A stretch of DNA of 58,507 bases, counting the filler, from Dugesia japonica (Eukaryota), in assembly GCA_001938525.1 (NCBI GenBank). It is 6 parts of 6 records of this genome, joined end to end, with 100 filler letters (N's around TTAATTAATTAA, not from the genome) between each part and the next. Parts side by side here need not be neighbours in the genome. Positions count along the whole stretch, not along the records: positions 48,772 to 58,507 come from MQRL01255510.1; 5 more parts are not named here. One strand, 5' to 3'. A program made the position numbers and the translations under genes. A model generated the notes under the pieces. The model saw only the letters and a program-made list of their open reading frames with translations. It had not been told where the DNA came from and did not search any database. Shown one piece after another: positions 12,327-58,507 of this stretch; position 1 is the first letter of the stretch, and each line of letters opens with the position of its first letter.

Positions 12327-12426
12327 NNNNNNNNNNNNNNNNNNNNNNNNNNNNNNNNNNNNNNNNNNNNTTAATTAATTAANNNNNNNNNNNNNNNNNN
12401 NNNNNNNNNNNNNNNNNNNNNNNNNN
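12327..12426. other. Artificial contig spacer (44 N + TTAATTAATTAA + 44 N)
   Basis: The same 100-bp construct recurs five times; the 12-mer gives stops in all six frames. Confidence 0.97.
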
Positions 12427-21971: not shown

Positions 21972-22675
21972 CTCTTTTATAGACATCAGTTCTATCTACA
22001 AACAAAAAATTATATCATCGAAGGTTGTTGGAATCACGGGGTATCAATGGAAGATCTATGTCACATAATCGCATTAATGACACAAGCCGAATTCGGCAAT
22101 TTTCATTCTTTCACGAGTTCAATGAAATATGCTCTTTTTTGGCCAAAGGTTTTGGAGGAAGAACTGAACAACACTGATATTCAGAAAATAAGAGATTATC
22201 ACAATAATTTAAAGGACTGGACCCAGAGAAAAATTGAATACGAGTTATTACGATTAATATCTGAAAGTTGGTTAATGTATGGAGTTGCATTTTACGATGT
22301 AACCGATTGTTGGAGTAAATCACTGAAATTCGGAATCGGTCCAGATGGTTTGTTTCTGTGTACAAATAAATTCAAGTTAATTGATAAGTAGATTTAAATA
22401 TCGGAATTGGATTTGTTGATAATAAATATTTATTAGGTGGGTATTCGATGCTGTCACGAAAGTTAATTGTACAGATCGGGTTATTGAGTTTGTGTTAATT
22501 CAAGATGATGGATCAACTCGCTGTCAGAAATTCAGTACAAAAAGCGCTAAAGCATCAAAGTCTCTACACAGATACGTAACTGAAAGCTTTCAGTTTTTTA
22601 AATGCGACACCGTTGACGTAGATATTTTGAAAGATTGTAAAACAATCACACATTTTTTCCGGAAAAGTAACACTT
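21972..22675 (+). CDS. FERM-domain protein, MYLIP/IDOL/DNR1-like; internal exons ~21972-22387 and 22437-22675
   Basis: RHQFYLQ, IALMTQAEFGNF, MYGVAFY, KFGIGPDGL. SKSLHRYVTESFQFFKCDTV resembles MYLIP SGLYRAITETHAFYRCDTV. The GT-AG intron 22388-22436 keeps the frame. A probable upstream exon (YWLNQSSGLYK) lies near 21375-21428. No RING exon seen. Confidence 0.75.
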
Positions 22676-25275
22676 GTAAGTGATTTTTTTTTAACTGTAA
22701 TTTTAATTAGTCATTATTTCTATTTTCATTAAAACTCTTCAAATATAAACTTATAAATTATAATAAATAATTATTCTTTAAACTTTTCAAAACTCCTATT
22801 AAAATAATAGAAAATATATCAAATTCTAGTCCAAAATTAATACTAAGTCCAAAAACCCATTATAATAAAAACCACTATAACAAACCCCATTATAAAATCC
22901 TCAAACCAAAATATAATTATCAAACTAGATAATTATAATCATTACTAAATTTTTCCAATCGGAGCAATGAATGAACCATAAGCACTTTACGCACTTTACG
23001 TTTAAAGCATCGCATTACCAATGGAAGTAGTCCAACATATTTTCAGTTTTACTTGCAAGAAATCAAACAATATCCCAATCGGAAAGTCGTATTGAAACGA
23101 GTAACGATCATTACATGGTTCAAATAATTCAAAGTTACAATATATGGCTAAGCCACATCATTTAATTTGCGTCAATGAATAATATTATTGTCTATTTACG
23201 AGGTGGACACTATCAGTACTTTTATTATTATAATTTATATTTTATTATTTATAAATTATTATAAATTTACAGATTTATGTAGTTTCAATTTGTCAAATTT
23301 ATATTGTTCTAAATATTGAATTTCCGAAAGGAAATTAATCAGATTGTGTACAGTTTCAAAATTGAGTAAAAATATAAATCCGTTTATTCAACTTTTCATA
23401 TTTATTAGAATCTACAAATGAAAAAAGAGTTTTGTTTGATCGTTGTAAAAGAAAATATTTTGAATTGGATCAATTGATTAGAGGCTATCGATATATTACG
23501 TAGACATTCAGGGGAGAGGAGATGGTTGGATTTAGGATATTTTGCGTACGGAAATGGGGAGTAGTCTCGACTGAATACGTACTTATGCATAAATTTATAT
23601 ATAGCCTATGTAACAATATAACTATAAGACGGTTTCGTAAAAATCGGGTTTTTAAGTAATAAAATTCAAAAAATCGTCTAAATAAAAAATACGGTAATTA
23701 TTTTGTATTGATTCGGTTGATTTTTTTGTTTTGAACAATATTGGGATCATTTTAATGAAGTCACATTATGTATAATATTCACATTCCATTTAAATCAAAA
23801 GTTTTTTAACCATGTAAGTGTAGATTTAAACACAGATATCCATGTCTGATTGATTAAATTTCCATTTCTTGAATTTGTTATATTAAAGTTTCTTTTTCGG
23901 TTAAGTGCTCTATTTTATCAATTATTTTGATGCAGTGTTGAAAATAATAAACTTTCAATGTTCTATTTGTATTTTCTTAATAATTTTTAATAAAATGTTT
24001 TCGATATTGTTCATCTTTCGCAATAATTAGTTTCTCAGTTTTTAGTAAGAAACATTCTTTGANGTTCTTATGTATTAAAGGTTCTTTGACTACATTCCAC
24101 GAATTTAATAGACTACCTAGCCATTAAAATATTTAATGGAGGTTTAATTTTTCATGATTTAGTCATATAATTAATTAGTATAAAATTTGTCTTTTTAACT
24201 AATTTTTTTATTCAAGAGTGACAGAGAATTAATAAAAGTCAGAAAAGTTTTACTTGGTTTTTAATTTTTTAATTGAAACTAGTGCTGGATTGAAAGCCAA
24301 AATTCCCGCAAAAATTATACTTTTTGTAATATGATTTTAATTTATTAAATTTTTGAAACTAATTAATAGAAGTTTACATTAGTTTTGATTTATTTATATC
24401 AAAGAAATTCATATATACAATTTAATAATGAAAAATGACTTATAAAATTTACAATTTTATTTGGGTTCTTGAGTCTATTCATCATTTTTTAGACTTTTTT
24501 AAAAATATTAACGCACAATTATAGGCAACATAGGATGCCAGAAAAGTATTTTTCATATATTTTAATTTAAATTATTTTTTACTCTAAAATTTAGTCTTTA
24601 TTTGTTATATTATATTTATTATGCTGTATTTATTTTATATTATTATATTAACCATTCCTTATCATGACAAATAAGGAAATAATATCATGAATGTGAGGTA
24701 AATTAAATAGACAGGTTGATTCGGGGAATTTTTTGTGGCAAATCAATAAAAGAATAATAANNNNNNNNNNNNNNNNNNNNNNNNNNNNNNNNNNNNNNNN
24801 NNNNNNNNNNNNNNNNNNNNNNNNTAAAGAAATATTTGGAAATTTTAAATTTAAGTAATAAATCAATAATAGTAAATTGGAATAAAATTTTAATAGAAAA
24901 GTATAGGAATATTTTGAAATTTTAAAATGAAGTATAAAAATTAATAAAAGTAAAATTAGAATAAATATTTTAATAAAAAAATNGAAATTGCCAGAAATAA
25001 ATTCCTTGTCAAATTTGTTTGTTTAATCTCCTTTTGTTAATTAAATAAATCTTTACAACTCAAGTGTTAATTTTTTTGATGGAACCAAATAACAAAATAG
25101 AAGATTCTGAGGAAACTACTTACAATGACAGTGCTAACCTTTATATTTGATTTTTAATTTCATTATTAGCGATTTTAATTTTATGAGCCTGTCAAAATTT
25201 AAAGTACAATTTAATGTTATCATTAGTATCTCTCCCTCTAGAATATACATGACTAGAATGTATATCATATATATA

Positions 25276-26542: not shown

Positions 26543-27475
26543 TATATATAATATTAATCTATATTGAAAAATGACTTAAAAAATTTACAATATTATTTGA
26601 GTTCCTGAGTAAATTCTTCAACATTTTTCTACACTTTTTTTATAATATTAACGCACAGTTATAGGCAGCGTAGGATGCCAGAAATGTATTTGTTTTCATA
26701 TATTTTAATTTAAATTATTTTTGAAAATTTATTCTTTTTTTTGTTACATTATTTTATATTTATTGTTATATTTATTTTATATTATTATATTAACCATTCT
26801 TTATCATGACAAATAAATCGGTGCTAACCTTTATATTTAATTTTTAATTTCATTATTAGCGATTTTAATTTTAATAGACTTTCAAAATTTAAAGTACAAC
26901 TTAAAGTTATCATTATTATCTCTCCCGCTAGAATTTCCCATGGTGATTTATTCCAATAAATATTAATTTTCTAAGTAACTTCTAAATTATGTTTTGTTGA
27001 ACTAATATTCTATAATAATCTATTTTCGTTTTTAACTCTATATAAATATTGGATATCGATTAGATTTCTAAGTTCTGTAAATTTTAAATTCAGATTTCAA
27101 CATTGCAATTTAATTTATTTTCTACTGATTCTTAAATAATAAACATTTATATATTTTCCTAGAAAAACGTGTTTTATGATCATACATAAAACATAAATAA
27201 TTTAGAATTATACAAGTATTAAACAGCCAACTTTTTCATTACTCATCAGTTGTCTGTTGTTTTATCAAATAATCTGTGTGCGTAGGAATGCTATTATTCA
27301 TAACCACGCAATTATTTAAATATAAACTTGAAAATTATTTTTATAATTTTATATTTATAATTAAATATTTTTTTGTATTTAATTAGGTGGTCGTGAATTC
27401 GATATTTTTAATAATGGTATTTAAAATTTATAAATGAAGATTGCCAGCCATAAAATATTTTATCAAGCATGTTAA

Positions 27476-36230: not shown

Positions 36231-36234
36231 GGTC

Positions 36235-37145
36235 TTTTTATGAAAATGTTTTTTTTTTATTTTATGTGTGTTAGAATTGTCTATATACATACATCCGTGT
36301 GTGTATAGACTTTTACAAAGACTTATATTCTATAATAAATTTTAAAATAAAAAATTAAGTCAATAAAAATATTGATTCAAAAGAATTAAAATTCAAAATT
36401 AAGAAAATAAATTAAAAACTTGGCAACCGTCAAAAGCTGAAATTCAAATCAATCCTTTATCTAAAGCAAGATTCAATTTGTCAAACCAGATCCAAAGTGA
36501 AATTAAGCATCTTAGAATAGCTTTATCAAAATCAAAACCAAACAGAAATCCAAATCAATCCTTTATCTAACGAAAGATTCAATCTCGTCTAAAGAAAATA
36601 ATAACAGTAAATTAACTAATTAAATTTTATTCGTTAATAAGATTTCGTTTAAAGTTGTGTTGATTTATAACATTAGTAATATTTATATTTGTAATATTTT
36701 TTAAAAAAAACAAACGTTGTAAGGTAATTATAAATTACAAGTTAAAGATATAATTGTTCAACACAACATACATTCCGGTTGTCCCAATATCAAGACAGGA
36801 GACACTTCCGGGCTCAACAAATTCTCCTATACACAAATTAATAATTATAATAATAATAATAGTAATAAATTATATGAAAAAACAAATATAGAATCCTCCT
36901 ATCAACCGGTATTAATCGTTCCATTTAATATAATATAATTTTTATAATATTTGTTGTTATATAATGTTTTTTTTTTTAATTTTTAATTTTAATTCTTTTG
37001 AATCAATAATTTATATTGACTTCATTTTTTATTTTAAAATTTATTATAGAATATAAGTCTTTGTAAAAGTCTATACACACACACGGATGTATGTATATAG
37101 ACAATTCTAACACACAAAAAATAAAAAAAAACATTTTCATAAAAA
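36235..37145. repeat. Long inverted repeat (~165-bp arms, 36235-36402 / 36976-37145)
   Basis: GTTAGAATTGTCTATATACATACATCCGTGTGTGTATAGACTTTTACAAAGACTT on the left arm and its reverse complement on the right arm. Confidence 0.85.
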
Positions 37146-37415
37146 CGATATATATTTACAAAACTCGGTAATTTCGGATCAGATGAATAAGTTTTGTTTG
37201 TTGGTTTGCTCAGATAAAATGAACACAAAAATCTCTTTTGTAAATACAATTTTGGAAGTTTTATCTAAATAAAAATTTCTACATGACGCTATGCATAAAT
37301 AAATTATCATGTGAGATCAAGTCGTGAATTTCAAATATCTGAGATTTTTTAATTATATATATAAGTAGTGTAGAAAATACGTTGGTACGACAATGGGTAC
37401 ACCCCCCATTTTTCA

Positions 37416-39258: not shown

Positions 39259-42200
39259 TTAATTCTAAAATTTGTAAAATAAATGGTATTTATTAAATTT
39301 TAATTTTTTTTAAATTATTAACAAATTAAATTTTAAAACAAACAAGTATAATATTAGAAATTATTCATTTTAATTCTCAAATGACTGTTTACTGAAAATA
39401 ATAAAACTAAAATAATACAAAATTACCTAAACTGAATATTTACAGATTTTAACAATTTAANATTAGTGATTTTAAAGTCAATGTGGAGCATTATAAAAAA
39501 CCAATTAAATTTATTAGGTAACAAAACTTATGTATAAAGGAATATTAAAAAAACTAATTTATTTTTAAAATTTTTTGAATATATTTTTATAGTTTTATAA
39601 TTACAATTATTGTGAGAATAATTGTTGGACTTAATTATTGATCGCATTTGAGATTTCATTAAAATAATTTATATTATTTTAATAAAATAGTTTTATAGGA
39701 AGTTTGCAACAATATAATATTCATCAGAAATTAATTGTGAAAAATATTAACTAATAAAAATAAATTTTATGGAGAAATTAATAGTTTCGACATTGAAAAT
39801 AAAATTACTTTGAAGATTTTCCCAATCTTTTGGCACCAGTAAATATCAGTGCAATTACAAAAAGGATATTACTAGGAAATTCCAATTACTCGAATTTTAG
39901 ATTATCTGGGTAACCGGTTAGTTCATAGTTTAACTATCCGAATAATCGAGTCCCGGTTAAAAATACTTTGATAGAAGTACGTAAGTAACTAAATTTTTTT
40001 AGAAAATTCAAAGTTCGGTTTTTAAAGAAACTAAGGATTGTTAAGTTCAATCAATGAATTAAACAATTATTTTGATATTACACTTTTAATATTTTATTAA
40101 AACTTAAAGCTTGAATCTCTACATCTTCTTCACCATTACTAAATAACTTTTCAAAAAATTCTTTAGCCAATGAATTAATTACATATTTTGATGAATATAT
40201 AAAGTGTTCATTAGACTGGGAATAAAAACCAGTTTGCAAAAACAAAATTAAAGAGACTATTTTTGTTTCTTCTTTCATCAAATCGCGCTTTTAAGTATTT
40301 CTTTATTTAAGCTACAAGATCATTATTTGCTTCTTGTAGCTTGTTGAAAAGAAATATCACAAACTCCTCCAGGTTTCATTAAATTTCTGTCTTCTTAGCT
40401 CAACTCATTTACAGCTAACTCTATAGATTGTAAAACTTCCAATCTTTTCTTCACGACATTAATATATTCATCTCAATACATTTATTTGCCCAGCTATAAT
40501 AAATGTTTGTTAAATAATTTATTCAATTTTAAGAAACGGTTTACTATGGGTATAATAGAATTCCAACGAGTCCTGCAGTCCAGAAGTAACCGTAACTTTA
40601 TACCTTCCTGTTCTAAAATATGTTTTAGTAGAATGCTGTTCTTAATGTTGAGATGTCTTTGGGATTTCGCAATGGCAAATCAACAAGATCGTGAGTTTAG
40701 TCTCGAAGATTTTAAATNTGAAATCCAATTATATCGTATACTTATATATGTTCTTCTTTAATATGTTTAATATAGATATAATAATATCGTATAAATAAGC
40801 TATATAGTATTCCTTATATAATTAACAAAAATTACTTTAAAAAAATTTTATTGTATAGTAACAAATGTTTACAAAATTATTTACTCAAATTTTAACAAAT
40901 TTTCTAGTTAAGATTTTTATCTCTTGATCTGCAGCTATAGAAGCTTTAGATCTTATAACAAGATTTTGAAAGAGGGTGGTAAAAATGAAATTAGGCTCTC
41001 TATTTATACTAGAGAGGTATGCATGCACATTATGGTAATTCATAAAAATATTATAAATATTTACTAAAATATTACAGTAATTCTTTAGAAATTTATAAAT
41101 ATTTATAAAAATTTTCATTTCTTTATTAAATTTTCAGTATTTACATAATCAATAATCTGAATAACTAAAGTTATACTTTCTGTCTTCTTAGCTCAACTCA
41201 TAAAATTATAACAATAAATAAAATTATAACCACGAAGCACAATATGAAGCGTAATTTGTAAACATCATAAATAGAAAATTTATAATTAATAAAATTGAAC
41301 ACCATAACATACTAAATTATACATTATACATAAATATTTTTAAAAAATTTGTAGAAAGTCAGGCTGATACAAAAAGTCAATAAAATTCGTAAATTAATAT
41401 AAAGTCAGTATGGCTTGAATTGTTTGATCCACTGATTTCTGATGATTTTTTATCTGAGCAGCCGAAGTTACTGGATTATCATGTGTTTGTATGTGTGTGT
41501 TTGATGTTAATATTTTTATTTTATGAGCTTTCCTCAACACTAATACTAGATTTTTAAAATAATTTATTATTTTTCTTGTCTCACCAAAAACGATTCTAAT
41601 TTCTCTGTGTATTGGCGCCACTTGCAATTCATTTTCAATTTCAAGATTTAAATTGGCATCTACAATATAATTGCTATTTTTAGTGATACTACTGGCATCT
41701 TCACCATAATCTATACTATCGTATTTATAGTCATCATAATAATTATTACTTGACTCTTCATCATCTCTTATTGTATTATTTTTATTATAGAACACATCAG
41801 TTACACCAAAATAAATTCCATGGTTCACACATAATTGACACACCGCCTCAATATTCTTACCACATCTCACTATTAATGCAGCTTCATCATTAGTACAGGC
41901 TATGATATCAGAAACTAAATTAATCCACAATTCTTTTAGCTTTTCTGTTACTAACGTAATAGTGGCATCTGAATCATAAGACCCTATATGAGGAACAATA
42001 CCAAGAACATATGATGTAGCAAATGCGTGGAGCGTAACATTCATATACCTTCTCATATTGATGTCACTCCATTTGTCTGCAGTTATACTAAATCTGTTTC
42101 AGATTTGAGTTAAAGCAATGAAGAAGTTATTATGTCAGTTTTTTGTCTTCATATAACTGCATTATATATTTGATAACTGTTGTTTCATTTTTCGGCATAT

Positions 42201-42339
42201 TATAACCGTGACTATATACAAAACCTTTGATGGCTTCAGAGGACGCTAATCCTTTTATTCTAAACCCGTCATTTGCAGCAATTCTCACCAATATTTCATT
42301 AAGTAAAAAATAAGTAACATCATTTAAAATAAAACTTTA

Positions 42340-42380
42340 TTGTTATATATTTCGACGGATTAACAGTCATCATCAGACAA
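42340..42380 (-). ncRNA. Second hammerhead copy in the inverted pseudo-LTR
   Basis: Reverse complement ttgtCTGATGAtgactgttaatccgtcGAAAtatataacaa, with one mismatch in stem II. Confidence 0.75.
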
Positions 42381-43461
42381 AAATGAAATAAATGAGTTTA
42401 TTCAGTCTGTATTATTCAAACAAAGATTAATGCAATTATACTGAATAGATATATAAAATATAATAAANAATTTCTAAATTCATTAACTTCGCAGACAATT
42501 GACAAAATATTGGTTGGTAATAATATTGATTTCGATAAAAAGACTAAAACTGTATTGAATAATCCTGAACCTGATAACATTTTATCAAATTGTATTGAAC
42601 CATTTGTTTTATAGATTTCTTATTCTGAAGGTTTTAAAAAGTTTAAGAATTCGATTTTGAAAGCTGCTTAGGATCTTCCTTTATTCAAAATTGTCTCTTA
42701 TTCACATAAGATTGTTAATAGCTTTGTTAATAAATCTCATACACCAATTTGTTTGTGTTCTAACCTTTTTTTATCAATTTAAATGTAATAGGGGTGATGC
42801 CACATACATTGGAGAGACTACCCGTCATCTCTGTACAGCGGTTCAAGAGCATAATCGTTTTGGTGGTGGTAGTAATATTGCTGAGCATAAAAATAAAAGA
42901 AATTGCAATGAGAATGTTAAAAATTTAATTTTTTAAAATTTTGTCTAAGCAATTTAAGAATTACTGGAAGAGAGTGTTGTATGAGGCGTTAATGATTAGA
43001 TTTCATAATCCAAATATTAATGTACAGGCAGCTCATTCAACTAAATCAATTAAAAAATTTTAAAAGAATTTTTGGATATAAAGTAATTTTTCAATTTTTA
43101 TTGAAATCATAATTTATTTTCAAATTTTTTTTATAGGTTTTTGTATTTTATTTTTTAAAGATAATTTTAAAAAATTTCATTTCTTCATAGGTTTTCTATT
43201 TTATTTTTTGAAATAAATTTCAATTTCCATAGGTTTTAAAAATTTTAATATAATCTAAAATTAAAAAATATAAATATTTTGGAAAAAGATCTTTGATTCT
43301 ATAGGTAACAGTAATAAAATATTATTATATAAATTAATTTTTTTATTGAAAAGTTGTTAAGACATTTAAAAAATTAAGAATTTTAGCCGTCTTATATTCA
43401 GTATAATCGCAATAATCTTTGTTTGAATAATACAAACTGAATAAACTCATTTATTTCATTT

Positions 43462-43502
43462 TTGTCTGATGATGACGGTTAATCCGTCGAAATATATAAC
43501 AA
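43462..43502 (+). ncRNA. Minimal type I hammerhead ribozyme (PLE-type)
   Basis: ttgt CTGATGA t gacgg-ttaat-ccgtc GAAA tata TA acaa: intact core, perfect stem II, stem I ttgt/acaa and a short palindromic stem III. Confidence 0.85.
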
Positions 43503-44440
43503 TGAAGTTTTATTTTAAATGGCGTTACTTATTTTTTATTAAACATTTGCAATGGTTTTTTGCATATTTCATTAAGTATTTCCCGATAGACAAATTTTAT
43601 CATACCAAGACCATCTACTTTTAGTTTTTGTGAAACAAAATTGTTAATTTCATCGTTTTTATTTTTTGAGAAAAAAATGTTGTAATCATGCCAATAGTAT
43701 TAGATTATTGGTGTCAGATAATAGTTTGATATGTACTGAATAGTCTTTGTCATAAGATTGGTTGTACCAAAATAAATTTTTCAATAAAAGAACACTAGAG
43801 TGCTGTACCAGTCATAAAAATGACATATAAGTCAAGTTTGTCTAGAGAAGAAGCAACGTAGACTTGTGTCAAATTAGGTGTAAGAGATGTCTCAATTTTG
43901 GACATATAGAGTGCTACACAAAATTAACAGGATACTGAGAAATTCGTGAATGCTGACGGGAAACGAAGCAAATATAAACAAATACATCGGCAAATATATT
44001 TCAATTGAAAAGAAGTACTACTAATACTAATACTACTAATATTATTATTATAAGAATAAAATATAATTCTATGTATTGCATTTATTTCAACTTTTTAATA
44101 ATTGTATTTGTTTCTACAAATAAATCTGGCTTAAATTTTATATTTTACTTTCATTAATAGCCACAAAATGTTTCATTAATCATCAAGATTCAACAGATTT
44201 ATTAAAAAAATTTATAAATAACTATTTTACTTTCAGTATTTGATTTCAGTTTACATTTGTGCTAATATAATTTTACACACATAATTTTATCCAATTTTAC
44301 ACACATGTGAATGTAATTTTGAGCAATCATCTAACAAAATTTAATTATGAAATATGAAAATGCAAAAACATTTTATTAGAAATAGAATATTATTGACTTT
44401 TTCAAGCCTTAATTGATTTCATCAATTTATTAATTATCTA

Positions 44441-45589
44441 ATGCAACAATTAAATGCAGATGTTCCAACTGGATTTTTTGAAATGCTTGTAGATTTGACT
44501 TATGATGTATTGAAAGATCAGCCTATTGATTTTTTGGAATATGCTTCAAATTATTTTCAAAAGATTTATGAAGAACAAGGCAGCAATAAAATGTACATGA
44601 GTCCAAAAACGGATGAATCTGACTCTTTTGTCGATTCTTTACTTGCTAGTTTGGATCAAATCGATTCAGATGATATTGAAGTTAAACCGAAAGCTAATTT
44701 TCGTCGTAAAAGTGTTGCGGCAGAGCGTATAGATATGGATGAATTAGAAGACGATGAAGAGATTTATGCAACTATACCAAAAACAGATATTCAACGACAG
44801 CGTTTAAAAAATGTTTGCCAACAAATTGTATTGTTTCAAAGTTTAGATGACGAACAAATAAATCATGTTATAAACGCCATGTTTCTAGTAGAACCAATGC
44901 CTGGTGAAAAAATAATTATCCAAGGTGATGATGGTGATAACTTTTATGTTATAGACTCGGGAGTTTTTAATTGTTATATAAGAGATGGTGATAGTGAAAA
45001 ACTAATTCATGTGTATAAAAATGAGGGTTACTTTGGGGAACTCGCATTAATGTATAATGCTCAAAGATCGGCAACAGTGATCGCAGAAACAACCGGAGCA
45101 TTATGGGCAATGGATAGAAAAACATTTAGATCCTTAGTAGTCGTTCAAACTTACAACCGCAAGCAAGTATATGATAAATTTTTGAAGCAGTTTCCAATAT
45201 TTCAAGAAATGACAGCTAGTGAAAGAATGAATGTTGCCGATGCTCTAGTACCAAAAAAATACGACGACAAAGAAATTATTATAAAACAAGGAAAACCAGG
45301 ACAGGAAATGTTTTTTATAGAGACTGGAGAAGTTTTAATTACCAAGATCCATCAAGGTAAAGAAATAGAAATAACTCGCCTTCATAACGGTCAATATTTT
45401 GGAGAACTTGCCTTATTGTCTAATCAGGCTCGACAAGCATCAGCGCATGCTGTAGGTACTACAAGATGCGCAATGTTAGACGTGAAAACCTTTGAAAGAT
45501 TGATGGGACCTTGTTTAGAAATAATGAAACGAAACATTCAAGATTATACTACTCAATTAGGCGAGTTATTCGGAACAGATATTAACTAG
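44441..45589 (+). CDS. PRKAR2: cAMP-dependent protein kinase type II regulatory subunit (382 aa, intronless CDS)
   Basis: RIIa docking domain (VPTGFFEML...QPIDFLEYASNYF), inhibitor site RRKSV, and two CNB domains (QGDDGDNFYVI..FGELALMYNAQRSATV; FGELALLSNQARQASA). Confidence 0.95.
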   Translation: MQQLNADVPTGFFEMLVDLTYDVLKDQPIDFLEYASNYFQKIYEEQGSNKMYMSPKTDESDSFVDSLLASLDQIDSDDIEVKPKANFRRKSVAAERIDMDELEDDEEIYATIPKTDIQRQRLKNVCQQIVLFQSLDDEQINHVINAMFLVEPMPGEKIIIQGDDGDNFYVIDSGVFNCYIRDGDSEKLIHVYKNEGYFGELALMYNAQRSATVIAETTGALWAMDRKTFRSLVVVQTYNRKQVYDKFLKQFPIFQEMTASERMNVADALVPKKYDDKEIIIKQGKPGQEMFFIETGEVLITKIHQGKEIEITRLHNGQYFGELALLSNQARQASAHAVGTTRCAMLDVKTFERLMGPCLEIMKRNIQDYTTQLGELFGTDIN

Positions 45590-48671: not shown

Positions 48672-48771
48672 NNNNNNNNNNNNNNNNNNNNNNNNNNNNN
48701 NNNNNNNNNNNNNNNTTAATTAATTAANNNNNNNNNNNNNNNNNNNNNNNNNNNNNNNNNNNNNNNNNNNN
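48672..48771. other. Artificial contig spacer
   Basis: 44 N + TTAATTAATTAA + 44 N. Confidence 0.97.
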
Positions 48772-49097
48772 TTGGTTACCATTTCTTCGTAATTGCTTTT
48801 CCATCTTTGGGCTTGCTTAATAGCGTTTATTTTCGCTCGGTTGGCGTCAATGTTGCTCTTGATGTATTTTTCGTGGGATTGACATGACCGTTTTCTCTTT
48901 TCTATCTCCTGACTGGCTTTTTTCACCTGGATTTCCAGTTCATTGTTATAGNNNNNNNNNNNNNNNNNNNNNNNNNNNNNNNNNNNNNNNNNNNNNNNNN
49001 NNNNNNNNNNNNNNNNNNNAGTGGTGAGGGTTCGAGTCTGGACTTGTAGTATTTGGATTTCGTTACGGAGATGGTTAATTAGGTTTTCAACGTTCAT
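48772..49097 (-). CDS. Coiled-coil accessory ORF (3' end cut by the contig)
   Basis: MNVENLINHLRNEIQILQVQ...ELEIQVKKASQEIEKRK heptads; acceptor ctctctctaattgtag 7 nt upstream of the ATG. Confidence 0.55.
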
Positions 49098-49263
49098 TTC
49101 TTTTCTACAATTAGAGAGAGGAATTATTTTATTATTATAAAATTTTGACAATTATGAATATATATAATTATACATTATTTACATATTTCATGTTATTCAT
49201 TATGATAATTTGCCTATTATGAGCACATATAGTTTTACATTATTTACATAATTAAGTTTATTT

Positions 49264-50450
49264 CTACCGAAATTTTACGCCAAGCACCCTTCGTGCAATT
49301 ATTTTTCGGCACAATGGACATTCATTTAAGCTTATAGCACACTTATAACATGTTATAAAGTGTCCGCATGGTAGAAATATGGTCTCAATGGCTTCTGTAA
49401 GACAGATGACACAGTCGTGATCTAATAATACCCATTCTCTTTCATATTCTATTTGTGGTTTCCCTGATTCGAGTGATCTTTGGTATAACTCGATGGGAGA
49501 AACTACCTCAGTTCCTTTCCCCGCAACTATTTGTTTTAACAGCTGGTTAGTAGTTATCCGGTCTAATTTTAATATATTAGACAACCGATTAGCTTGTAAT
49601 TCCACCGCCATTTCTATCCTGTCACTAGACATATTCCATTCAACCCTACATGTTGTTCCTTGATTCTCCTCCTTATCGATCTTATTTATTCTCGAGCAAT
49701 TCGCTTGGTGGAATATAGTTGCTGGTAATCTTTCTATTTCTTTTAATACTAGTGTTTCCCGTTTACACGTGGTGCATTTAATAATCCTGTCCTTGGCCTG
49801 TTGAATGATATATAGACCATATATTGCTTTTTCTTTTAGATTTGGTAGTTCTTTGAATGTTTTTCCCCTTTCCATTCGATATCCTCTGATAGGACTACTT
49901 CCGCTAGGTTCTTTATTATTTTACAATATATCTTTTTTGGTTCTAAAATTATTTCTTCCATTTCGAGTTTTCTTCCTTTGCATTGTTGTGCTTTATTGTT
50001 GACATTTAAATTCAACAGGAATGGGCAGGTCGGAAACCATTTCCTATGCGCCTTATTAGGTCGCTCGTTCTTACCCCACATGTGTAGTATACCTTGACAA
50101 TATATGCATTTTACTCTATCTGGTCGTTCTTGGGTACCGACATAATAAAATCCAGACTTGGCTATTGCTTCCACGAGACCGGACAAATATTCAGGTAATT
50201 CGGTCAACGATTGCTTCCTTATGTTTTCGTCACGGTATTTTTCATCAAAGACTTTCATTGTACCATAACACATTCGTTTTCGTATAAAATTTTCTGGTGC
50301 TGCAAAGACGTTACGGTAGTGCATTATAGTTTGTGTTACCGAACTCTACTTGATTTCTGCTCGTCCGTTACTCATAACAAATGATTCGATCTCTGGGTCT
50401 CCGATTAATATTCTAACTTCCTCTAGTGACACTTCGAAATTGAATTCCAT
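49264..50450 (-). pseudogene. Inhibitor-of-apoptosis protein: BIR - degenerate BIR - RING (one stop, one frameshift)
   Basis: BIR: AKSGFYYVG..DRVKCIYC-x16-H-x6-CPFL. RING: CVIC..IFLPCGHFITCYKCAISLNECPLCR at the C-terminus. The ATG at 50450 is in frame with 50324 through one TAG. Frameshift near the A-run at ~49935. Confidence 0.9.
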
Positions 50451-50648
50451 TATCTACAAAATGTACATTATTGCCCCTGATTATTAAAATTATTCAATTG
50501 TTTTACATAGAATATCTATTAGAGATTTTACTTATATACGCATATAAACATTTTATTTATTGATTTTATTATATCTATTTATTATATATATATATATTTA
50601 TATATATATATATATTCTTCTTTTTTAACTTTTCCTCTCTCCTGATTT

Positions 50649-51248
50649 TCAGACAAAGCTGACTTGGTTGTGGATACTCCGGGTTTTGAGTATCTCTATC
50701 TCCCATTTTTGTGAGTTTATTAATTTTTTAAGGTGTTTGAGTTCTTTTGCTTGATCAGAAATTAGGTCATGTTGTTTGGCTACCAACTCCATTGTATAAT
50801 TTTGTTTTTCTGTAGCGATTTCCAACATTTGCCGATTTTCTGTTATTTGTTGTCGACACATAAGGGTTTCTGCATACAAATTTTCATTTTGCAGCTGTAA
50901 GATTTTATTTTTAAATTCCAGTTCGCTCCAATCTTGGCATTTGGTATTTAATAGGGTTTGTACTAGTTGATTTTGATGGTATTCGAGTTCCTCAAGTCTT
51001 TGTTGAGCCCATTTAGTTTGAATTTTAGAACTATCCCACAATGCTTTCATTTTTTCGTTGTGATTTCTCCATATTTCATTGATTGTTCTTTGTGAACAGA
51101 TACTATTACCATTTATTGAAGAAGTGCTTCCTGCAGGGCTACTACATAGGTAACTTGCTCTACTGGAATCCTTTAATTCATTTTGTGAATCCATTGATTC
51201 ATTTTCATCTAAACTTGGATAGCAGTTTTCATTTTCAATCCGACTCAT
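50649..51248 (-). CDS. Accessory ORF: Ser/acidic N-terminus plus long coiled coil (199 aa)
   Basis: Intact ORF with heptad-rich Q/E/L/K content; acceptor cctcattcag 2 nt before the ATG. Confidence 0.65.
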   Translation of the reverse strand: MSRIENENCYPSLDENESMDSQNELKDSSRASYLCSSPAGSTSSINGNSICSQRTINEIWRNHNEKMKALWDSSKIQTKWAQQRLEELEYHQNQLVQTLLNTKCQDWSELEFKNKILQLQNENLYAETLMCRQQITENRQMLEIATEKQNYTMELVAKQHDLISDQAKELKHLKKLINSQKWEIEILKTRSIHNQVSFV

Positions 51249-51336
51249 TTCTGAATGAGGATGTTTTATTAATTTTATATTTATAATTACATCTATATAT
51301 AGTTATTATGTCCTAATTTACACTATTTACACAAAT

Positions 51337-53004
51337 TCAATGTTTGTTTAGTCGTAATGTGGTCGTAGTCTTTATAGGTTCCGTAGTAGTGATTTCCATA
51401 CCTTCCCAACGATTCTGTTTTGTCTCAATTTTGCGTATATTCGACATCCAGTTATTCAGAAACTCCACTCTTCTCACTTCCTTCTTCTGGTTTTCTGTTA
51501 TAGTGGTTGTTTGGATTTTACTAGTAGTTGATAATCTGGGTGTGGATGTTGACCTTTTGGTACTCTGCTTTCGTTTTCCTTTTGTTTTCATTTTGATTAT
51601 TACATCCTGGTTGATTACTGTGATGAACTCGAATCCATATAAACCTTTAGTAAATTCCCCAATGTATAATTCTTGATTTCTTCTCCTTCCGCAATATTCT
51701 CTACTATTGAATTTCTATCCCCATTCGTAGAGGTTCTTGAGTGGGTGTACTAATAATCTTTCTACTCTCTCTCCGAATTGTATGTAATATATCTCCTTGT
51801 TCCTTTTTACCTGTAATGGGTATGGTGCTGGTCGCCAGTATGGTTTCCATCCTTTAAAATCCTGATTTGTTATGGAGCATACCTCATGACCTTGAGTAAT
51901 TGTTATGCTCTTCTGACCTAGTTCTCTCCAGTTTTTATTCCACACAACCGCTTCGTATAGCATGATCTGCCATATCATGGTATGGTAAAGATACTCATTC
52001 TTTGAACATATTTTTGTTATCTCCTCCCCGATATTAGTGGTCACCCATTCTTTGTACCTGATGTTATTCTCCGAATAAGACAATACGAGGTTCATTTCTT
52101 GTGTGGGTTCGAATTCGTGACTTGCTTCATAAACTAATGGGTTCCTTTTATTTTTCAACGTTACGTCCCAGAATTTTTCTATCTGCCAATTGTGGACATC
52201 AATTGACAATAGGTTTCCTTCCATTGGTCCTTGACTAAAGAGTTGTATGATAATTTTCTTTGGTACCTGATGCAGTCTAATCATCGTGGTTTTTTGACTT
52301 TTGATTGCCGGGTTTAGAATTAATTGTCCATAGTTGTACAGTACTTGGGTTTTCTGTTCCCTTTGCAGCCCTACATGGTTTATTGTTATGGCGTGTATTT
52401 TCTTTTCCTTGATAAATATTCGATGTTCTGTTAGCACTGGTTCGTTTACTTGACATTCTTGCCCGCTGATTCCTTTTAGGATTACCATTATTATGGTGGT
52501 TAAAATGATTTGCCACTTCGAGATTCCATTTTGAGTAACCACCTGTATTTGCGGCGTTGCCAACGTAGGTAATGCGTAGTAATGCCCATAACCATAAAAT
52601 TGTTTTGGTTATCGCTTCCGTCGGGATCTTACTCCTGTTTTCTTGTGATAATTTTTCTTCTGCGTCTCTTGATTTATTTGTTCTGCTTTGCAGGATCTGA
52701 TAACTATTTTTATTTCCTTTAATTCCTTTTTTGCTAAGTTGAGTAATCGTTTCTTCTCTTCCTCCATCATATCCTGTTGCTCCTTTATTGACTTTTCTAT
52801 TATCCTTTCCCCGCTCTGCTCGTCTTCCAGGTTCTTGTCGATCTTACTGAGTTCTGATTTCCATAAGTTTAGATCTTTCCATTTTATCATTTCATTTACT
52901 CGACAATCCTCTTGTACAGGTGGTCCAATCATCCCCCATGGTAAGAGAGCTTCCTGTGGTTCGTAAATTCTCAACCAACCCCATTGTACTAGGGTTCGAT
53001 GCAA
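51337..53004 (-). pseudogene. Env-like or secreted-protein ORF: coiled coil, RSRRKR, internal signal-like peptide, ectodomain, Thr-rich tail
   Basis: ORFs 53004-52609, 52563-51715 and 51591-51337 share one frame, separated by single stops. Hydrophobic WQIILTTIIMVILKGISG|QEC. Confidence 0.6.
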
Positions 53005-53267
53005 TAGATGAATGGATGATAGTAATTCTTCACAGTATATTTCGGTACATGATAAACATAATCTTTTTTATGGTGGATTGCTGAACAGGTGCTTCGATTG
53101 GTAATTTAAGTTCTGATCCTTCACAATCTTTTTGAACCAATTTTCCCGTCTTAATAACCATGTTTTCCTGTCATAAATAGCCTTGAAGGTAATTTTTAAT
53201 ATAGTTTGTGTTTTCTTTATACATTGTGTACAATTTCCTTCTATTTGAGTTACTGTAAGTGGGCATG

Positions 53268-55156
53268 TTATTTTCCTGATATGGACACAGTTCTCCTCTG
53301 TTTTCGATGTTTGGGTTCATTAATGGCTTTATTATCAATTAAAGGCGCAATCAGTGGTGCTTGGATATGATTTTTTGTTCTATATATTTTACTTGTTGAT
53401 CTTATTTCTGCAAGGTTTGTTTCTGCTGTTTCTATATTTGCAGCAGGTGCCCCCGTTTCTTGTATTATTATTTTTTTATTGGCAGCAGGTAGGCTCGTTT
53501 TTTGTTTTACTACTGTCTCGTTTCTCGATATTAATCCTTCCACATTTTCTTTAAACTCAGCGTCCTCGCTGAGATCGTTTAACCTTATTCTTATCTTCCT
53601 TTTTGGTACATGATTGTTTTGTGGTTTTCCATATATCATCATAGCTTTTTGTAACCGTAATGGATAGCTATGCGATATATTTAGTTCAGAGTTCTCTGCC
53701 TTGCGTGGTCTTTCTGGTCCTTTATGTTTTGTTGTATCTTTTATAGCACCTGATGTTGACGTTGTTTTCTCTGTAGTTGCTGCCTTTTTACATAAGTTTG
53801 CGTGATATATTTTTGGTTTCTCTAACAGGTTTCCTTTCTTCCTTACTTTGAGATTGGTTTCTGTTACTTCGATTACTTCATATGGCCCTTGCCACGGTCT
53901 TTTTAGTTTTGACGTGGTACCCACACAAATATCAGGTAAATTGATCAATACCATATATCCTTTTTTAAATGAATGTTGCATTGCTGTTTTATCGTGTAAA
54001 TCTATAACTTTCCTGATAAAATCCCACATTCTCCTTGGCTTGTTTCCATATTTTTTGCATAGTTTCTTTGAAATTTGCTGCAAAATCTGTTTCGTCCTGA
54101 TATTGTGTTATTGGTGGCTGAAATTCCAGATCAATAGGCATGTTGCATTCTCTACCATACATGAGTCCAAACGGAGTATATTTAGTGGCTGGATGCACAC
54201 TCATTCTATATGCAAATAGACACAACTGAATATGTTTGTCCCAATTGTTCTGTTCCTTCTGTGCGTAACTAGATAACATGTTAATCAATGTTTTATTAAA
54301 TCTCTCCGTTAACCCATCTGTCTGAGGGTGGTAAGGTGATGTTCGTAACTGGTGAATTTTGAGGAAGTTTGATACTTCAGCTAATATATTACTCATGAAG
54401 TTTTTTCCCTGGTCCGTCAATATATTTCTTAGGTGTACCATATCTGCTGAAGAATTTTCGTACCACAATATCTACTATGGTAGTTGCTTTTTGATTTTTC
54501 ATCGGAAATGCCTCCGGTAATTTGGACAGATAATCCATTATGGTAAGGATATATATATTTCCACTTAGTGTTGGAGGTAATGGTCCAACTACGTCCATAG
54601 CAATGATTTCCATTGGAGCTGCTGGTACCGCAATTGGTTTTAATAATGCTTTTACTCTTTTGCCCGTTCCTCTTCTGGCAGCACATATTTGACATTTCGC
54701 AATCCAATCCTTTACTGATTCAGTTATACGTGGCTAGTAATATTTCTGTCTCAATTTGGATTCTGTTTTCTTATGAGACATGTGTCCACCGAGTACACCA
54801 TTGTGATACTGTTCTAAAAATTTGTCTCGTCTTGCTTTATGAATAACTAATACAGTATTGTCTCCATCTTGAGCAGTCAACCATCCTTTGGTAAACGCGT
54901 AACGACCGCCATTTTTCTTAAAGTGCTCTTTCGTCTTGGGTTCACATTCTAACTTCTCCAAATTGTAATTCTCCATAAATTTTGTGATGATCTGTATTTC
55001 CTCATCATCCGCTTGTGCTTGTTTTAATCCATCGAAATTCCGATCTTCTGCTAAAATGAAATATACCATTCCTACTTTTAATAATTCTCTTAACGTAAAT
55101 GTTTCCGTATCTTCCGGTGTATTCTCCGTGACTTCTGGTCCACCAATTCTTGACAA
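53268..55156 (-). pseudogene. Gypsy integrase (HHCC, DDE, GPY/F) with a long C-terminal extension
   Basis: YHNGVLGGH..KCQIC, IAMDVVGPLP, ILTDQGKNF, TSPYHPQTDGLTERFNKTL, TPFGLMYGRE, WQGPYEV; one stop and several frameshifts. Confidence 0.93.
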
Positions 55157-55169
55157 ACAATCCGCATTT

Positions 55170-57381
55170 GAATGGCTTTACCCGTTTTAAATTTTAACAG
55201 CGGACAATAATCTTGCATTGCTAATTGCCATTTTGCCATTCTGTTCCATCGTAAGGGTTTTTGTGCCATAAAATTAATTGGCAAGTGATCCGTGTTGATT
55301 AAAACCTCGTGACCGTGTATGAGTGATCGAAAGTGTTTGGTGGCTATAACGATAGCCATTATTTCTCGTTCTGTAGTGCTATAATTCAATTCAGCACCCT
55401 GAAATTTCTTGCTGAAATACGCAATCACTCTTTCTCTGCCTTGTTCCTCTAGTTGACTTAATACTGCGCCCATTGCATATCCACTAGCATCCGTAGCTAA
55501 TATAAATGGTTTTTTAAAATCTGGATGTACCAAGATTGGTGCTGTTAGCAATTTATCTCGTAATGTCTCAAATGATTGCTGTTGTTCTGGTCCCAATATA
55601 AATGCAGTATCTTGTTTAACCAATTCTTGCATAGGTTTTGCAATTTTAGCAAAATCTTTAATGAATTTCCGATAGTAATTGGCAAGACCGAGGAATTCCT
55701 GTATTTTGAGTACGCAATTTGGTGACGCTAAATTCCGTATCTTTTCGGTGTTTCGAGGGTCAGGTTCTTTTCCTTTATCTGATATTAGATGACCCAAATA
55801 AGTCACTTTATTCATTGCCCATTCACATTTAGTAGGCTTAACCTTTAAATTCCATTTCCGCAATCTGATAAACACACTCCTTAGATTGTTGACGTGACTT
55901 TCGAATGTTGGTGAATATATAAGTAAATCGTCAATGTAGACCATGCATTGAGATATGCCGTGAGTTACATAATTCATCATTCTTTGAAATGAGGCTGGGG
56001 CATTAGTAAGCCCAAATGGCATACGGATAAACTGATATAAGTCTTTCCCTGTAGAAAAGGCGGTTTTTTCTCTGTCCTCTGGTTTGATTTTTATTTGCCA
56101 GTAGCCGCTTCGCAAATCCAATGTAGTAAATATTTTAGCGTTACACAGTAATTGCAGTAATTCGTTGATGTCGGGCAACGGGTAAGTGTCTTTTTTCGTC
56201 TGAGCATTTAATCTTCGATAATCGATACAAAATCTTTGAGTCCCATCTTTCTTATCTACTAATACCACTGGTGACTGCCATGGTGAGCAGCTGGGTTCTA
56301 TTACGCCGATTTTCACTAACTTAGCTGTTTCTTTATTTGCGAATTCTTTTTTCTCCATCGACATAGCATATGGTTTCTGCTTGCATAAGGTTTCATCTGT
56401 TAGTGGAATTGTGTGCATCGTTGCTGTGCACATCCCTAATTCTTCGTCAGTCCATGCAAAGATATCTCGAAATTCCTCCAATAATTGTAGTATTGCTTTC
56501 TTTTGATCATCCGTTAGCGTTTCGGTTTCCACTTTAAATGTTCTATCTACTTCTGGTTTGGTGGCTATTTCTTCTATCTCCCCTGCTTCTGGTTCGATGG
56601 GTGTTAGTGTACCTATCCTGGAATTTGGTTTGATTTTGATATCTTTTTCTGTAAAATTGACCAAACTAACTGGTACTTCTCCACTCTTATTAACTGTAGT
56701 TATCCCTCCTGCTGTGGGTAACTCATATTGTTGTGCAAATCCATCATAAGGTTCGAAATAACAGTCTCCTTCGTACGCACTTTTGGTGCTTACTACACAA
56801 TATACTTGGCATCTACTGGGTACCAAAATTTCTTCATGATCTTTAACATGAGTATAACCCTCCAAAGATTGTAACTGTAATGTGGAGAAGTTTAAGATAC
56901 CGTTCTTCATCAAAATTAGGAGAATATCTGTACCTAAAATACACTGTCCCGCCATTTCTACTATTATCATGCTGTGCTTGATTTTGTTATCTTGATATTC
57001 GACTTCGCAAGCTGATTCCCCAAAAATCTTCAGACTACTTCCATTTGCCACATCTGCCGTGGTGTTAGTGGGTAATATGTTTTTATATTCGGTTATCGCA
57101 ATTTCATCTATTGATAACAACGAGATGGTTGCTCCCGTATCTAGTAACGCGGTTGTAGGTCTTCCATTGATTCTTACTATGATTGTTAATATTGGTCCGC
57201 CACTGAGACTTGCGCATACCACATCTGTAGCTTTATGGCCGGGGTTGTGCTGTTTCTTGGTTTTCCATCTGGGTTCCCGTTCTTGGAACCGGATCCAATC
57301 ATCCTGTATAATAGTAGTTTTCTCATAATCGGGACTTAGATTGTTTTGCTCTCTTCTGTTTCTACGTGGTTGCTGATTCAT
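55170..57381 (-). CDS. pol: Gypsy Pol: protease 2, RT, RNase H
   Basis: ALLDTGATISL..CILGTDIL; SPWQSPVVLVDKKDG..RFCIDYRRLN, LDLRSGYWQI, MPFGLTNAPASFQ, YIDDLL; TDASGYAMGAVL, YSTTEREIMAI, TDH. Confidence 0.96.
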
Positions 57382-57399
57382 TACTGGCTGATTCCACTG

Positions 57400-58507
57400 C
57401 TATGACGGTTTTTTCCGGGTTATTATTAATCTAGTTTTCTGATATCCTACTGGAGTATATTCGTGTTCACGGTTTTCTCGTAATGATAGTTTTTTGAGGT
57501 CTAAAATTCCTTCTGGGCAGATACGCAGTAAGAGATCCAATCCTATTAGACAGTCGAATCTTAATTCGTTCATTATTTGCAATTTGTGCCACAGGCGTAC
57601 CCCGTCGCTCTCTACCGCACATACCGCTTCACCAATAGGCGATATTTTTCCTCCTGAGGCGTTGATGATAACTCCTTTAGTAATATTTATCCTGAGTAGT
57701 CGATAATCTTCCAGCACTCTTTTGTGGACTAACGTTGTACTCGCCCCCGTATCAATAATAGCTATTACCCATCTTCCATTTATTTTCATTCGTTTTTGTA
57801 GTAGTTTGGCTCGTGGAGAAATCATCATACACACGGTTTGAGTTTCTAGTTTATCATCGTCCGTGATTCTGTTAGTTGGGGGGTAGAAATTCTGTTCAGC
57901 AACTCTTCGGTCAACGGAGGTCACATTATTTTCTGTTAATAAGGCTGTATTAGGGGCCTGTGGTGCATTTATATAAGGAGTGTTATACATAGGCCCTGGT
58001 GCCCATACCTGTGGTGGTTGTTGATTCCTAGGTTGCCAGCCCTGTTGCGGATAGGCGGTATAGTACATTTGTGCTGGTGCTGGGATATTCTCATTTCCTC
58101 CGAACTTAAATGCATTTTTCAGTCGCTACATTTTACTGATTTTCTCATATTGTTGCCTTTTGAATTCTGCTTCATATTCCATAGCGGTTTTATAACTAGG
58201 TACATGTGGTATTCCGCTGTTTTCTCCTCTATCGTCATCGCTACTGCTGCTACTCTCGTCCTTATTTTTAAACCTTTTTTTAAATTGGTTGAAGTACGAT
58301 ATTTTCTTCTTGGCGTTGCTCATTTCTTCACATAATAGTCTGAGTTGCATTATGACTTCTTTGTCGGATCCTCTGATTTGTCCGAGTTTTCGAATAAATC
58401 TTTTTACTCTATCAATGTCTTTTGAATAGCTATTAAGTACCATAGTTTTGGCTAAGAAAGGGAATATTCCGGTTACCATTTTCCAATTCACCTTCTTTTC
58501 TCTTTTA
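57400..58507 (-). CDS. Upstream polyprotein part: acidic and Pro/Gln-rich region plus aspartic protease 1
   Basis: Same frame as Pol, with TAG stops at 58126 and 57400. INGRWVIAIIDTGASTTLV...INASGGKI...CLIGLDLL. Confidence 0.85.

What the first reader, a model, noticed from the sequence alone, without database searches (positions are those of the whole stretch)
48772..58507. Giant Gypsy retroelement that appears to carry its own IAP apoptosis inhibitor plus coiled-coil accessory genes
Seen: downstream of integrase, on the same strand and with only ~90-200-nt AT-rich spacers, lie an Env-like ORF, a coiled-coil ORF, an intronless BIR-RING IAP and another coiled-coil ORF. No LTR separates them, and the IAP shows the same mild decay as pol. 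Known: IAP capture is typical of large DNA viruses such as baculoviruses, not of ordinary LTR retrotransposons. Giant 'Burro' Gypsy elements are described from Schmidtea, and I recall (unverified here) a report of an anti-apoptotic gene in one of them, so this may be a relative rather than wholly new. Inference: the element behaves like a complex retrovirus that protects its host cell, e.g. a stem cell, from death during expression or integration.
Basis: partly seen in the sequence, partly recalled or inferred. Interest (0 to 1): 0.88.

Follow-up and report, generated by a model that had tools for sequence, protein, structure and literature searches.

The report
Decayed Burro-like retrotransposon carrying apoptosis inhibitor
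A broken copy of a many-copy Gypsy retrotransposon carries its own damaged apoptosis-inhibitor (IAP) gene; it is likely a relative of the planarian Burro elements, for which this cargo and a cell-protecting role are already published.

Summary
The core observation holds. On the minus strand, a Gypsy pol (two proteases, dUTPase-like, RT, RNase H, integrase) runs without an LTR into several accessory frames and an intronless BIR-RING IAP. The IAP has one stop and one frameshift, like the decayed pol. Contigs from two public runs cover all 30 bins, mostly at 85-95% identity, so pol and IAP are both multicopy. Exact-match contigs support two junctions, and diverged contigs link the coiled-coil ORF to the BIR. 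The IAP forms a distinct clade with a degenerate second BIR and, in one member, a UBA-like linker, which points to capture from a host IAP. The 'Env-like' label is unsupported; 'giant' and 'LTR-enclosed' cannot be tested, because the window ends upstream and a scaffold gap ends the contig downstream. BIR in Burro elements has been reported since 2007, and a 2026 paper (seen only through a citing paper) reports that Burro1's IAP protects stem cells. Burro membership is likely but unproven: no Burro sequence was available. Two RNA runs show almost no reads. Tandem proteases are the only possibly new feature.

The parts
58126..58506 (-). Upstream polyprotein segment of unknown function, cut by the window end; in frame with both proteases and RT; ends at an in-frame stop
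   Evidence: no Pfam or NCBIfam hit
57400..58125 (-). Pro/Gln-rich linker plus aspartyl protease 1 (DTG motif intact); ends at an in-frame stop
   Evidence: PF13975 E 4.4e-7; 32% identical over 125 aa to protease 2, E 4e-15
55090..57399 (-). Aspartyl protease 2 (DTG intact), dUTPase-like region, reverse transcriptase, RNase H; frame changes near 55170
   Evidence: PF13975 E 2.7e-7; PF00692 E 9.4e-4 (below curated cut-off); PF00078 E 3.9e-35; PF17917/PF17919 E about 1e-35
53268..55177 (-). Integrase (H2C2 zinc domain, rve core, C-terminal tail) in four pieces: one in-frame stop (54734-54736) and frame changes near 54425 and 54000
   Evidence: PF17921 and PF00665 hits; tail matches Gypsy pol tails at about 30%
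51337..53316 (-). About 660 codons in one reading frame, cut by three stops (82, 152, 297 and 125 aa). Function unknown; Env not supported
   Evidence: frames; hydropathy maximum 1.6; 0 sequons and no furin-type site in the 297- and 125-aa pieces; no hits; present in other copies (record 3: 774 nt, 68 differences)
50649..51248 (-). Open 199-aa accessory ORF: Ser-rich N-terminus, then a likely coiled coil
   Evidence: heptad score reached by 6 of 200 shuffles; 27 X2 contigs differ at 50895
50451..50648 (-). 198-nt spacer, 83% AT, with a (TA)n tract; possible internal promoter or 3' end (inferred)
49264..50450 (-). Intronless IAP pseudogene: BIR1 (complete C-x2-C-x16-H-x6-C), degenerate BIR2-like module, diverged linker (UBA-like in relative P0001), RING; stop at 50346-50348, frameshift near 49870
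   Evidence: fold of relative P0249
49129..49250 (.). AT-rich spacer holding a 65-nt tandem duplication
   Evidence: (D14)
48772..49097 (-). Last accessory ORF, helical and Lys/Glu/Gln-rich, interrupted by an N gap (48952-49019) and cut by the contig end
   Evidence: covered by X1 and X2 contigs
48672..48771 (.). 100-nt scaffold placeholder (44 N, 12 bases, 44 N): the element's 3' end and any 3' LTR are not assembled, and the host DNA to the left need not be contiguous
   Evidence: five placeholders of the same layout in the window

Best explanation
This is a decayed copy of a multicopy Gypsy LTR retrotransposon, likely of the planarian Burro group, that carries an intronless BIR-RING IAP gene and other accessory ORFs downstream of integrase. 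Shown: the domain order, the breaks, and the presence of many diverged copies of both pol and the IAP region. Inferred: an ancestor picked up a host IAP mRNA. The cargo has the cellular BIR-BIR-UBA-RING layout, with BIR2 and UBA worn down and codon use like that of pol. In working relatives the IAP is likely read from an internal promoter in the AT-rich spacer or from a subgenomic RNA. BIR1 would bind caspases or their N-terminal-motif antagonists, and the RING would ubiquitylate them. Cells that express the element would thus resist caspase-mediated death, as reported for Burro1 in stem cells. This copy can make neither a whole Pol nor a whole IAP.
For: Gypsy domain order plus a dUTPase-like segment between protease and RT, as described for Burro (PMC6431247 section 7). 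Multicopy: X1 789 and X2 10,260 contigs laid, all 30 of 30 bins covered in each; in X2, 8,262 of 10,260 are under 95% alike; 18 X2 and 5 X1 contigs differ at 50157 in the BIR. Junctions: exact-match X1 contigs 52661-53692 and 53663-54219 run from integrase into the accessory frame, and 51121-51399 spans the next spacer. One contig each in X1 and X2 joins the 199-aa ORF to the BIR region in a diverged copy (joint 50197/50693). No N from 49020 to 58507. IAP clade: the window plus P0001, P0273, P0249 and P0274 form one clade in a 446-domain BIR tree (support 0.77); the four of them with a RING do so in a 96-row RING tree (0.91). A BIR profile finds a second, degenerate module in 4 of 5 family proteins (scores 5.0-15.5; best of 300 shuffles 4.9). 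A UBA-type profile scores P0001 at 27.5 bits, against 2.0 for shuffles. The Atlas neighbours shown for P0001 are eukaryote IAP clusters. GC3 is 0.29-0.41 in accessory ORFs and 0.34 in pol, against 0.23 in the host PKA-RII gene. Host DNA is 72% AT, and the top Atlas cluster of PKA-RII is mostly Platyhelminthes. Published precedent.
Against: No Burro sequence was available, so membership rests on architecture. The host is not proven to be a planarian: the three top Atlas clusters (flatworm, chordate, arthropod) tie at 0.97. Two proteases in tandem are not described for Burro1 in the section read. No ankyrin repeat is seen in the visible part. The window's own linker did not score as UBA (-2.4 bits), nor did P0249/P0274, and its BIR2 score (6.6) is only just above the shuffles. 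P0001's own BIR2 scored 0.0. The PI31 exon has GC3 0.36, so the codon contrast rests on one of two host genes. Two oligo-dT RNA runs with the same species label gave only 60 and 18 reads (of 13.6 and 11.6 million read), nearly all partial, none at 99% and one at 95-99%. So this subfamily is not visibly expressed there, unlike the 'highly abundant and active' Burro1 (PMC8532177). Third-position bias among the 40 listed of 965 difference sites is not significant (accessory 6 of 11, p 0.12; pol 14 of 29, p 0.07). No contig spans pol to IAP in one piece.
Confidence: 0.72

Rival explanations
1. An independent Gypsy lineage, not a Burro, with tandem proteases captured an IAP separately, so apoptosis-inhibitor capture happened more than once.
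For: Tandem proteases; 0 of 3 BURRO1 primers match; RT is on a long branch with no relative above 49% identity; almost no RNA reads; distant family members sit on unnamed ENA contigs of 15,990 and 6,828 bp.
Against: The combination of dUTPase-like segment, BIR-RING, very many copies and an AT-rich, probably flatworm host matches Burro. The primers may lie outside the 9.7 kb in view, and no Burro RT was in the tree.
Confidence: 0.15
2. The IAP is a host gene or retrocopy that lies beside a Gypsy fragment by chance, by nested insertion or by misassembly of a repeat-rich scaffold.
For: A fragmented short-contig scaffold; no LTR in view; no single contig spans pol to IAP. One near-identical X2 contig (record 9) stops matching above 50371, so the IAP 5' side varies among copies.
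Against: The IAP region is itself multicopy with many diverged contigs. Exact contigs span two junctions, and diverged copies join the 199-aa ORF to the BIR. Same strand, same A-rich skew and similar decay as pol. The IAP is far from all sampled cellular IAPs.
Confidence: 0.07
3. The cargo is element-borne but works mainly as a ubiquitin ligase for the element's own ends, such as removing restriction or innate-signalling factors, not as a caspase inhibitor.
For: The RING is complete in all 4 family members that reach it, while BIR2 is degenerate. The peptide-binding groove of BIR1 is only partly kept: the acidic and Trp positions that I recall as XIAP E314 and W323 are present in the window, but P0249/P0274 lack them (numbering recalled). 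Burro also carries MATH and Ubi/SUMO-like domains.
Against: [quoted passage not shown] The two roles do not exclude each other.
Confidence: 0.15

Closest known systems
Burro1 / GYPSM1 and Burro2-4 giant Gypsy elements of Schmidtea mediterranea (Jurka 2007; Grohme 2018; via PMC6431247 section 7)
   Same: Gypsy PR-RT-RH-IN with a dUTPase-like segment between PR and RT; BIR cargo; accessory ORFs; tandem repeats; very many copies. Decayed copies with stops and frameshifts are described for Dugesia japonica.
   Different: Two proteases here; no ankyrin seen in the visible part. The giant upstream polyprotein (Gag, MATH, BCL2, Env) and the LTRs are outside the window. Sequence identity to Burro could not be measured.
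Burro1 B-IAP (Lee, Poulet, Allikka Parambil, van Wolfswinkel, Dev Cell 2026; seen only through PMC13465017)
   Same: BIR plus RING carried by an LTR/Gypsy element; the proposed anti-caspase, stem-cell-protecting role.
   Different: This copy is broken and not visibly expressed; orthology is untested.
Cellular IAPs (XIAP, cIAP1/2, BIRC7, DIAP) and baculovirus IAPs
   Same: BIR zinc motif and C-terminal RING. The BIR of relative P0249 folds like cIAP/XIAP/ML-IAP BIRs (rmsd about 2.4 A).
   Different: One intact BIR plus a degenerate one; family-specific N-terminal and linker segments; long branch. A UBA-like linker in P0001 fits a cellular rather than a baculoviral donor (that baculoviral IAPs lack UBA is recalled; no named viral IAP was in the trees).
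Errantiviruses (env-bearing Gypsy elements)
   Same: An extra ORF with a hydrophobic helix after integrase.
   Different: No Env features found in that ORF.

Membership tests
Ty3/Gypsy LTR retrotransposons | pol order PR-RT-RNase H-integrase with Gypsy-type RT | tested here: met
   RT 36-49% identical to Gypsy pols
Ty3/Gypsy LTR retrotransposons | flanking LTRs, PBS/PPT and target-site duplication | not testable with these tools
   5' end beyond the window; 3' end at a scaffold placeholder; no genome held
Burro | planarian (Dugesiidae/Geoplanidae) host | tested here: inconclusive
   72% AT; top Atlas cluster of host PKA-RII mostly Platyhelminthes but tied with two others
Burro | dUTPase-like domain between PR and RT | tested here: met
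   PF00692 E 9.4e-4 at the right place, 19.4 bits against a cut-off of 22, so weak
Burro | BIR (with RING) cargo | tested here: met
Burro | very high copy number | tested here: met
   10,260 contigs laid in X2, most 85-95% alike; summed depth is not a copy number
Burro | giant ORF1 with Gag, Smc, MATH, BCL2 and in-frame Env before PR; total above 30 kb | not testable with these tools
   only about 240 codons upstream of protease 1 are in the window
Burro | ankyrin repeats | tested here: inconclusive
   no hit in the 15 element frames scanned; the element is cut at both ends
Burro | RT or nucleotide similarity to Burro1-4 | tested here: inconclusive
   no Burro sequence available; 0 of 3 BURRO1 primers match with up to 3 mismatches, amplicon position unknown
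IAP (BIRC) family | BIR with C-x2-C-x16-H-x6-C | tested here: met
IAP (BIRC) family | C-terminal C3HC4 RING | tested here: met
IAP (BIRC) family | caspase inhibition or ubiquitin-ligase activity | not testable with these tools
   bench test; the gene is broken in this copy
Env / fusion glycoprotein | signal peptide, N-glycosylation sequons, furin site plus fusion peptide, C-terminal membrane anchor | tested here: not met
   one hydrophobic helix only; 0 sequons, no R-x-K/R-R, no C-terminal anchor in the 297- and 125-aa pieces
Env / fusion glycoprotein | sequence or fold similarity to a known fusion protein | tested here: inconclusive
   no sequence hits; model pLDDT 37, too poor to judge

The most novel reading that the evidence does not exclude
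A separate giant Gypsy lineage with two intact, 32%-identical proteases in tandem and an uncharacterised 660-codon post-integrase gene captured a host BIR-BIR-UBA-RING IAP. The family reaches beyond the Burro1 clade to distant members (P0249/P0274, about 30% identical). Anti-apoptotic cargo would then be old and repeatedly kept, or captured more than once.
Probability: 0.15. Interest if true: 0.55.

Novelty: new member of a known kind. Interest (0 to 1): 0.27.

Why it matters
A retrotransposon that carries an apoptosis inhibitor is striking, but it is already described and, by report, functionally tested for Burro1. This copy adds comparative detail. It shows a diverged, decayed subfamily whose IAP keeps traces of a cellular BIR-BIR-UBA-RING ancestor, and it has tandem proteases. 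That could help date the capture and test whether the protective cargo decays with pol or outlives it.

Tried and rejected
No whole genome is held. The Dev Cell 2026 paper (PMC id, DOI, PMID) and Grohme 2018 are not held, so their text and supplements, which bear directly on Burro membership, were not seen. Run search: no RNA holder listed. The long-protein RT search was crowded by concatenated gene models and showed no close relative. IAP scans of viral contigs and JGI metagenomes, and a pol scan of viral contigs, found no relatives. An RT scan gave 80 loci; full-length matches were at most 49% identical (short pieces up to 72%); 0 of 80 hit any accessory ORF or IAP, and 0 of the 7 with a protease hit had two. 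'Env-like' ORF: no hits among 212 candidates of 163-520 aa (longer forms not searched), in Pfam, NCBIfam or PDB sequences. The Atlas did not answer for it. Its single-sequence model had pLDDT 37, with 0 viral-fold matches at E 0.001 or better. Best VIA Z was 6.9 (rmsd 3.6, 106 aligned) to a carboxypeptidase N-terminal beta-sandwich, within the tool's stated noise range. 0 of 8 window proteins were found by exact look-up. The X18 'joint' 53744/49122 was rejected: only 21 AT-rich letters on a side, with loose ends. The codon-position test was underpowered. My first heptad score for the last ORF used a wrong frame and was redone; that call's test of stops in the placeholder was negative and is not used. 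A search for duplicated proteases in Gypsy elements gave 0 papers (one search). Earlier-findings look-ups by sequence, place and first word set were empty.
Full report
Observation. The minus strand from the window end to about 48770 is GC-richer than its flank (0.36 against 0.23) and strongly A-skewed. One frame runs from 58506 to 55090 through two in-frame stops and holds two aspartyl proteases, a weak dUTPase-like match, RT and RNase H. Integrase follows in four pieces. After it come about 660 codons in one frame cut by three stops (53316-51337), an open 199-aa ORF (51248-50649), the IAP (50450-49264) and a last ORF from 49097 that runs into N gaps. Seven frames of 120 aa or more lie in 49021-53316, against at most 1 in 500 shuffles. 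No LTR-like repeat exists in the window. But the element's 3' end is a 100-nt scaffold placeholder and its 5' end is outside the window, so LTRs and total size cannot be judged.

The IAP. BIR (E 3e-15) and RING (E 2e-14) lie in two frames that align end to end on one intact protein, P0001. The gene is therefore intronless, with a stop at 50346-50348 and a frameshift near 49870. By my count that is 2 breaks in 1.2 kb, against 6 in 5.2 kb of pol. A profile search of 1.84 billion representatives gave 15,911 hits at E 0.001 or better; among the best 150, only P0001, P0249 and P0273 matched in one long stretch. P0274 is a 99% twin of P0249. These share family-specific segments outside the named domains. 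They form one long-branched clade in a 446-domain BIR tree (0.77) and in a 96-row RING tree (0.91; P0273 has no RING) (FastTree, short alignments, rooted on a shark XIAP). Between BIR and RING lies a second zinc module: a BIR profile scores it 15.5, 6.6, 5.4 and 5.0 in P0273, the window, P0274 and P0249, and 0.0 in P0001, against a best of 4.9 in 300 shuffles. In the low-confidence model of P0249 (mean pLDDT 42) it repeats the helix-helix-hairpin order of BIR1. A profile from 45 UBA-type linkers scores P0001 at 27.5 bits but not the window or P0249/P0274. I read this as a worn BIR-BIR-UBA-RING cellular IAP; the donor is inferred, since no planarian host IAP or named viral IAP was in the trees.

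Is it cargo? Of 24 listed runs I laid 4 at 85% likeness. Contigs of X1 (789) and X2 (10,260) cover 30 of 30 bins; in X2 384 are at 99% or more, 1,614 at 95-99%, 5,170 at 90-95% and 3,092 below 90%. Many contigs differ at single sites in the BIR (18 in X2, 5 in X1 at 50157) and in the 199-aa ORF (27 in X2 at 50895), so the cargo region is multicopy. Summed depth is uneven (7 to 22,790 in X2), and the tool warns that it is no copy number. Exact X1 contigs cover 52661-54219 (two, overlapping) and 51121-51399, which supports the assembly at the integrase/accessory junction and the next spacer. One contig each in X1 and X2 joins the 199-aa ORF to the BIR in a diverged, shorter copy. No contig spans pol to IAP, the (TA)n spacer was skipped by the tool, and one near-identical X2 contig stops matching above 50371. 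Indels in other copies lie within a few bases of two of the pol frame changes, so these breaks look private to this copy. Two oligo-dT RNA runs of the same species label (about 25% read) gave 60 and 18 reads, nearly all partial, none at 99%: no sign that this subfamily is expressed there, though strain differences are possible.

The 'Env-like' ORF has one hydrophobic helix, three cysteines, no sequon, no furin-type site and no C-terminal anchor. It has no family or homologue hits, and its model is too poor to search. In Burro1, env homology lies upstream of the protease, outside this window. The label should be dropped. Only the 199-aa ORF scored as coiled coil in a crude test. The two proteases both keep DTG and are 32% identical. 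An X2 contig about 90% alike (57085-57589) runs from the end of the first into the second, so the tandem is not unique to this copy. One literature search for it found nothing.

Mechanism. Shown: architecture, decay, multicopy state. Inferred: capture of a host IAP mRNA; expression in working relatives from an internal promoter in the 82-83% AT spacers (planarian stem-cell promoters are reported to be very AT-rich, PMC10558129, passages) or from a subgenomic RNA; BIR1 binding caspases or their antagonists and RING ubiquitylating them (established for XIAP and DIAP1, own knowledge); survival of cells that express the element. This copy is dead.

Known comparison. PMC6431247 (section 7 read whole) describes Burro1/GYPSM1 with BIR and ankyrin motifs noted by Jurka in 2007, the same motifs in Burro2-4, a dUTPase-like segment between PR and RT, thousands of copies, and decayed Burro fragments in Dugesia japonica. 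[quoted passage not shown] PMC8532177 (passages and one supplement row) calls BURRO1 highly abundant and active; its three primers do not match the window, which says little. PMC11410931, PMC13238120 and PMC13309565 (passages) added only mentions. The host is likely a flatworm (72% AT, weak). It works like Burro1; membership is likely but not proven by sequence.

Verdict. Real feature, known kind, broken copy. Interest 0.27. The residual novelty lies in the tandem proteases, the unexplained post-integrase frame and the distant ENA members of the IAP clade.

Noticed in passing
window 57786-57530 and 57175-56920 (-): Two aspartyl proteases in tandem, both with intact DTG, 32% identical; also seen in another copy about 90% alike. 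Not found described in one literature search.
   Followed up: partly
P0249, P0274 (unnamed ENA contigs of 15,990 and 6,828 bp): Intact, distant (about 30%) members of the same IAP clade, with an altered BIR peptide groove; their neighbourhood could not be read.
   Followed up: partly
window 44441-45589 (+): Intronless, apparently intact PKA type II regulatory subunit (RIIa plus two cNMP domains, 382 aa); a host gene or retrogene.
   Followed up: partly
window 4644-5255 (+): Last exon of a PI31 (PSMF1) proteasome regulator (PF08577 E 5e-7).
   Followed up: partly
window 21972-22388 (+): FERM central-domain exon (E 1e-9).
   Followed up: partly
window 41394-42098 (-): 234-aa frame that resembles a decayed hAT-type transposase (recalled resemblance; no Pfam hit).
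   Followed up: no
window 42299-43543: 149-nt inverted repeats (94%) around 947 nt with a weak GIY-YIG match at 42661-42933 (E 0.02): possibly a Penelope-like fragment or a small inverted-repeat element.
   Followed up: no
window 36233-37148: Nested inverted repeats (75 and 115 nt arms), MITE-like.
   Followed up: no
window 24425-25244 and 26561-26934: Diverged duplication of about 2.1 kb spacing (87-92% in blocks).
   Followed up: no
window 12378-13542 (-): Two long frames (186 and 209 aa) with a Cys-rich stretch and no Pfam hit.
   Followed up: partly
window 12327, 20896, 29338, 37749, 48672: Five 100-nt placeholders (44 N, 12 bases, 44 N): the window is a scaffold of short contigs, so neighbourhood across them is uncertain.
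   Followed up: yes
window 10063-10580: 234-nt perfect duplication on both sides of a 50-N gap, likely an assembly overlap artefact.
   Followed up: no
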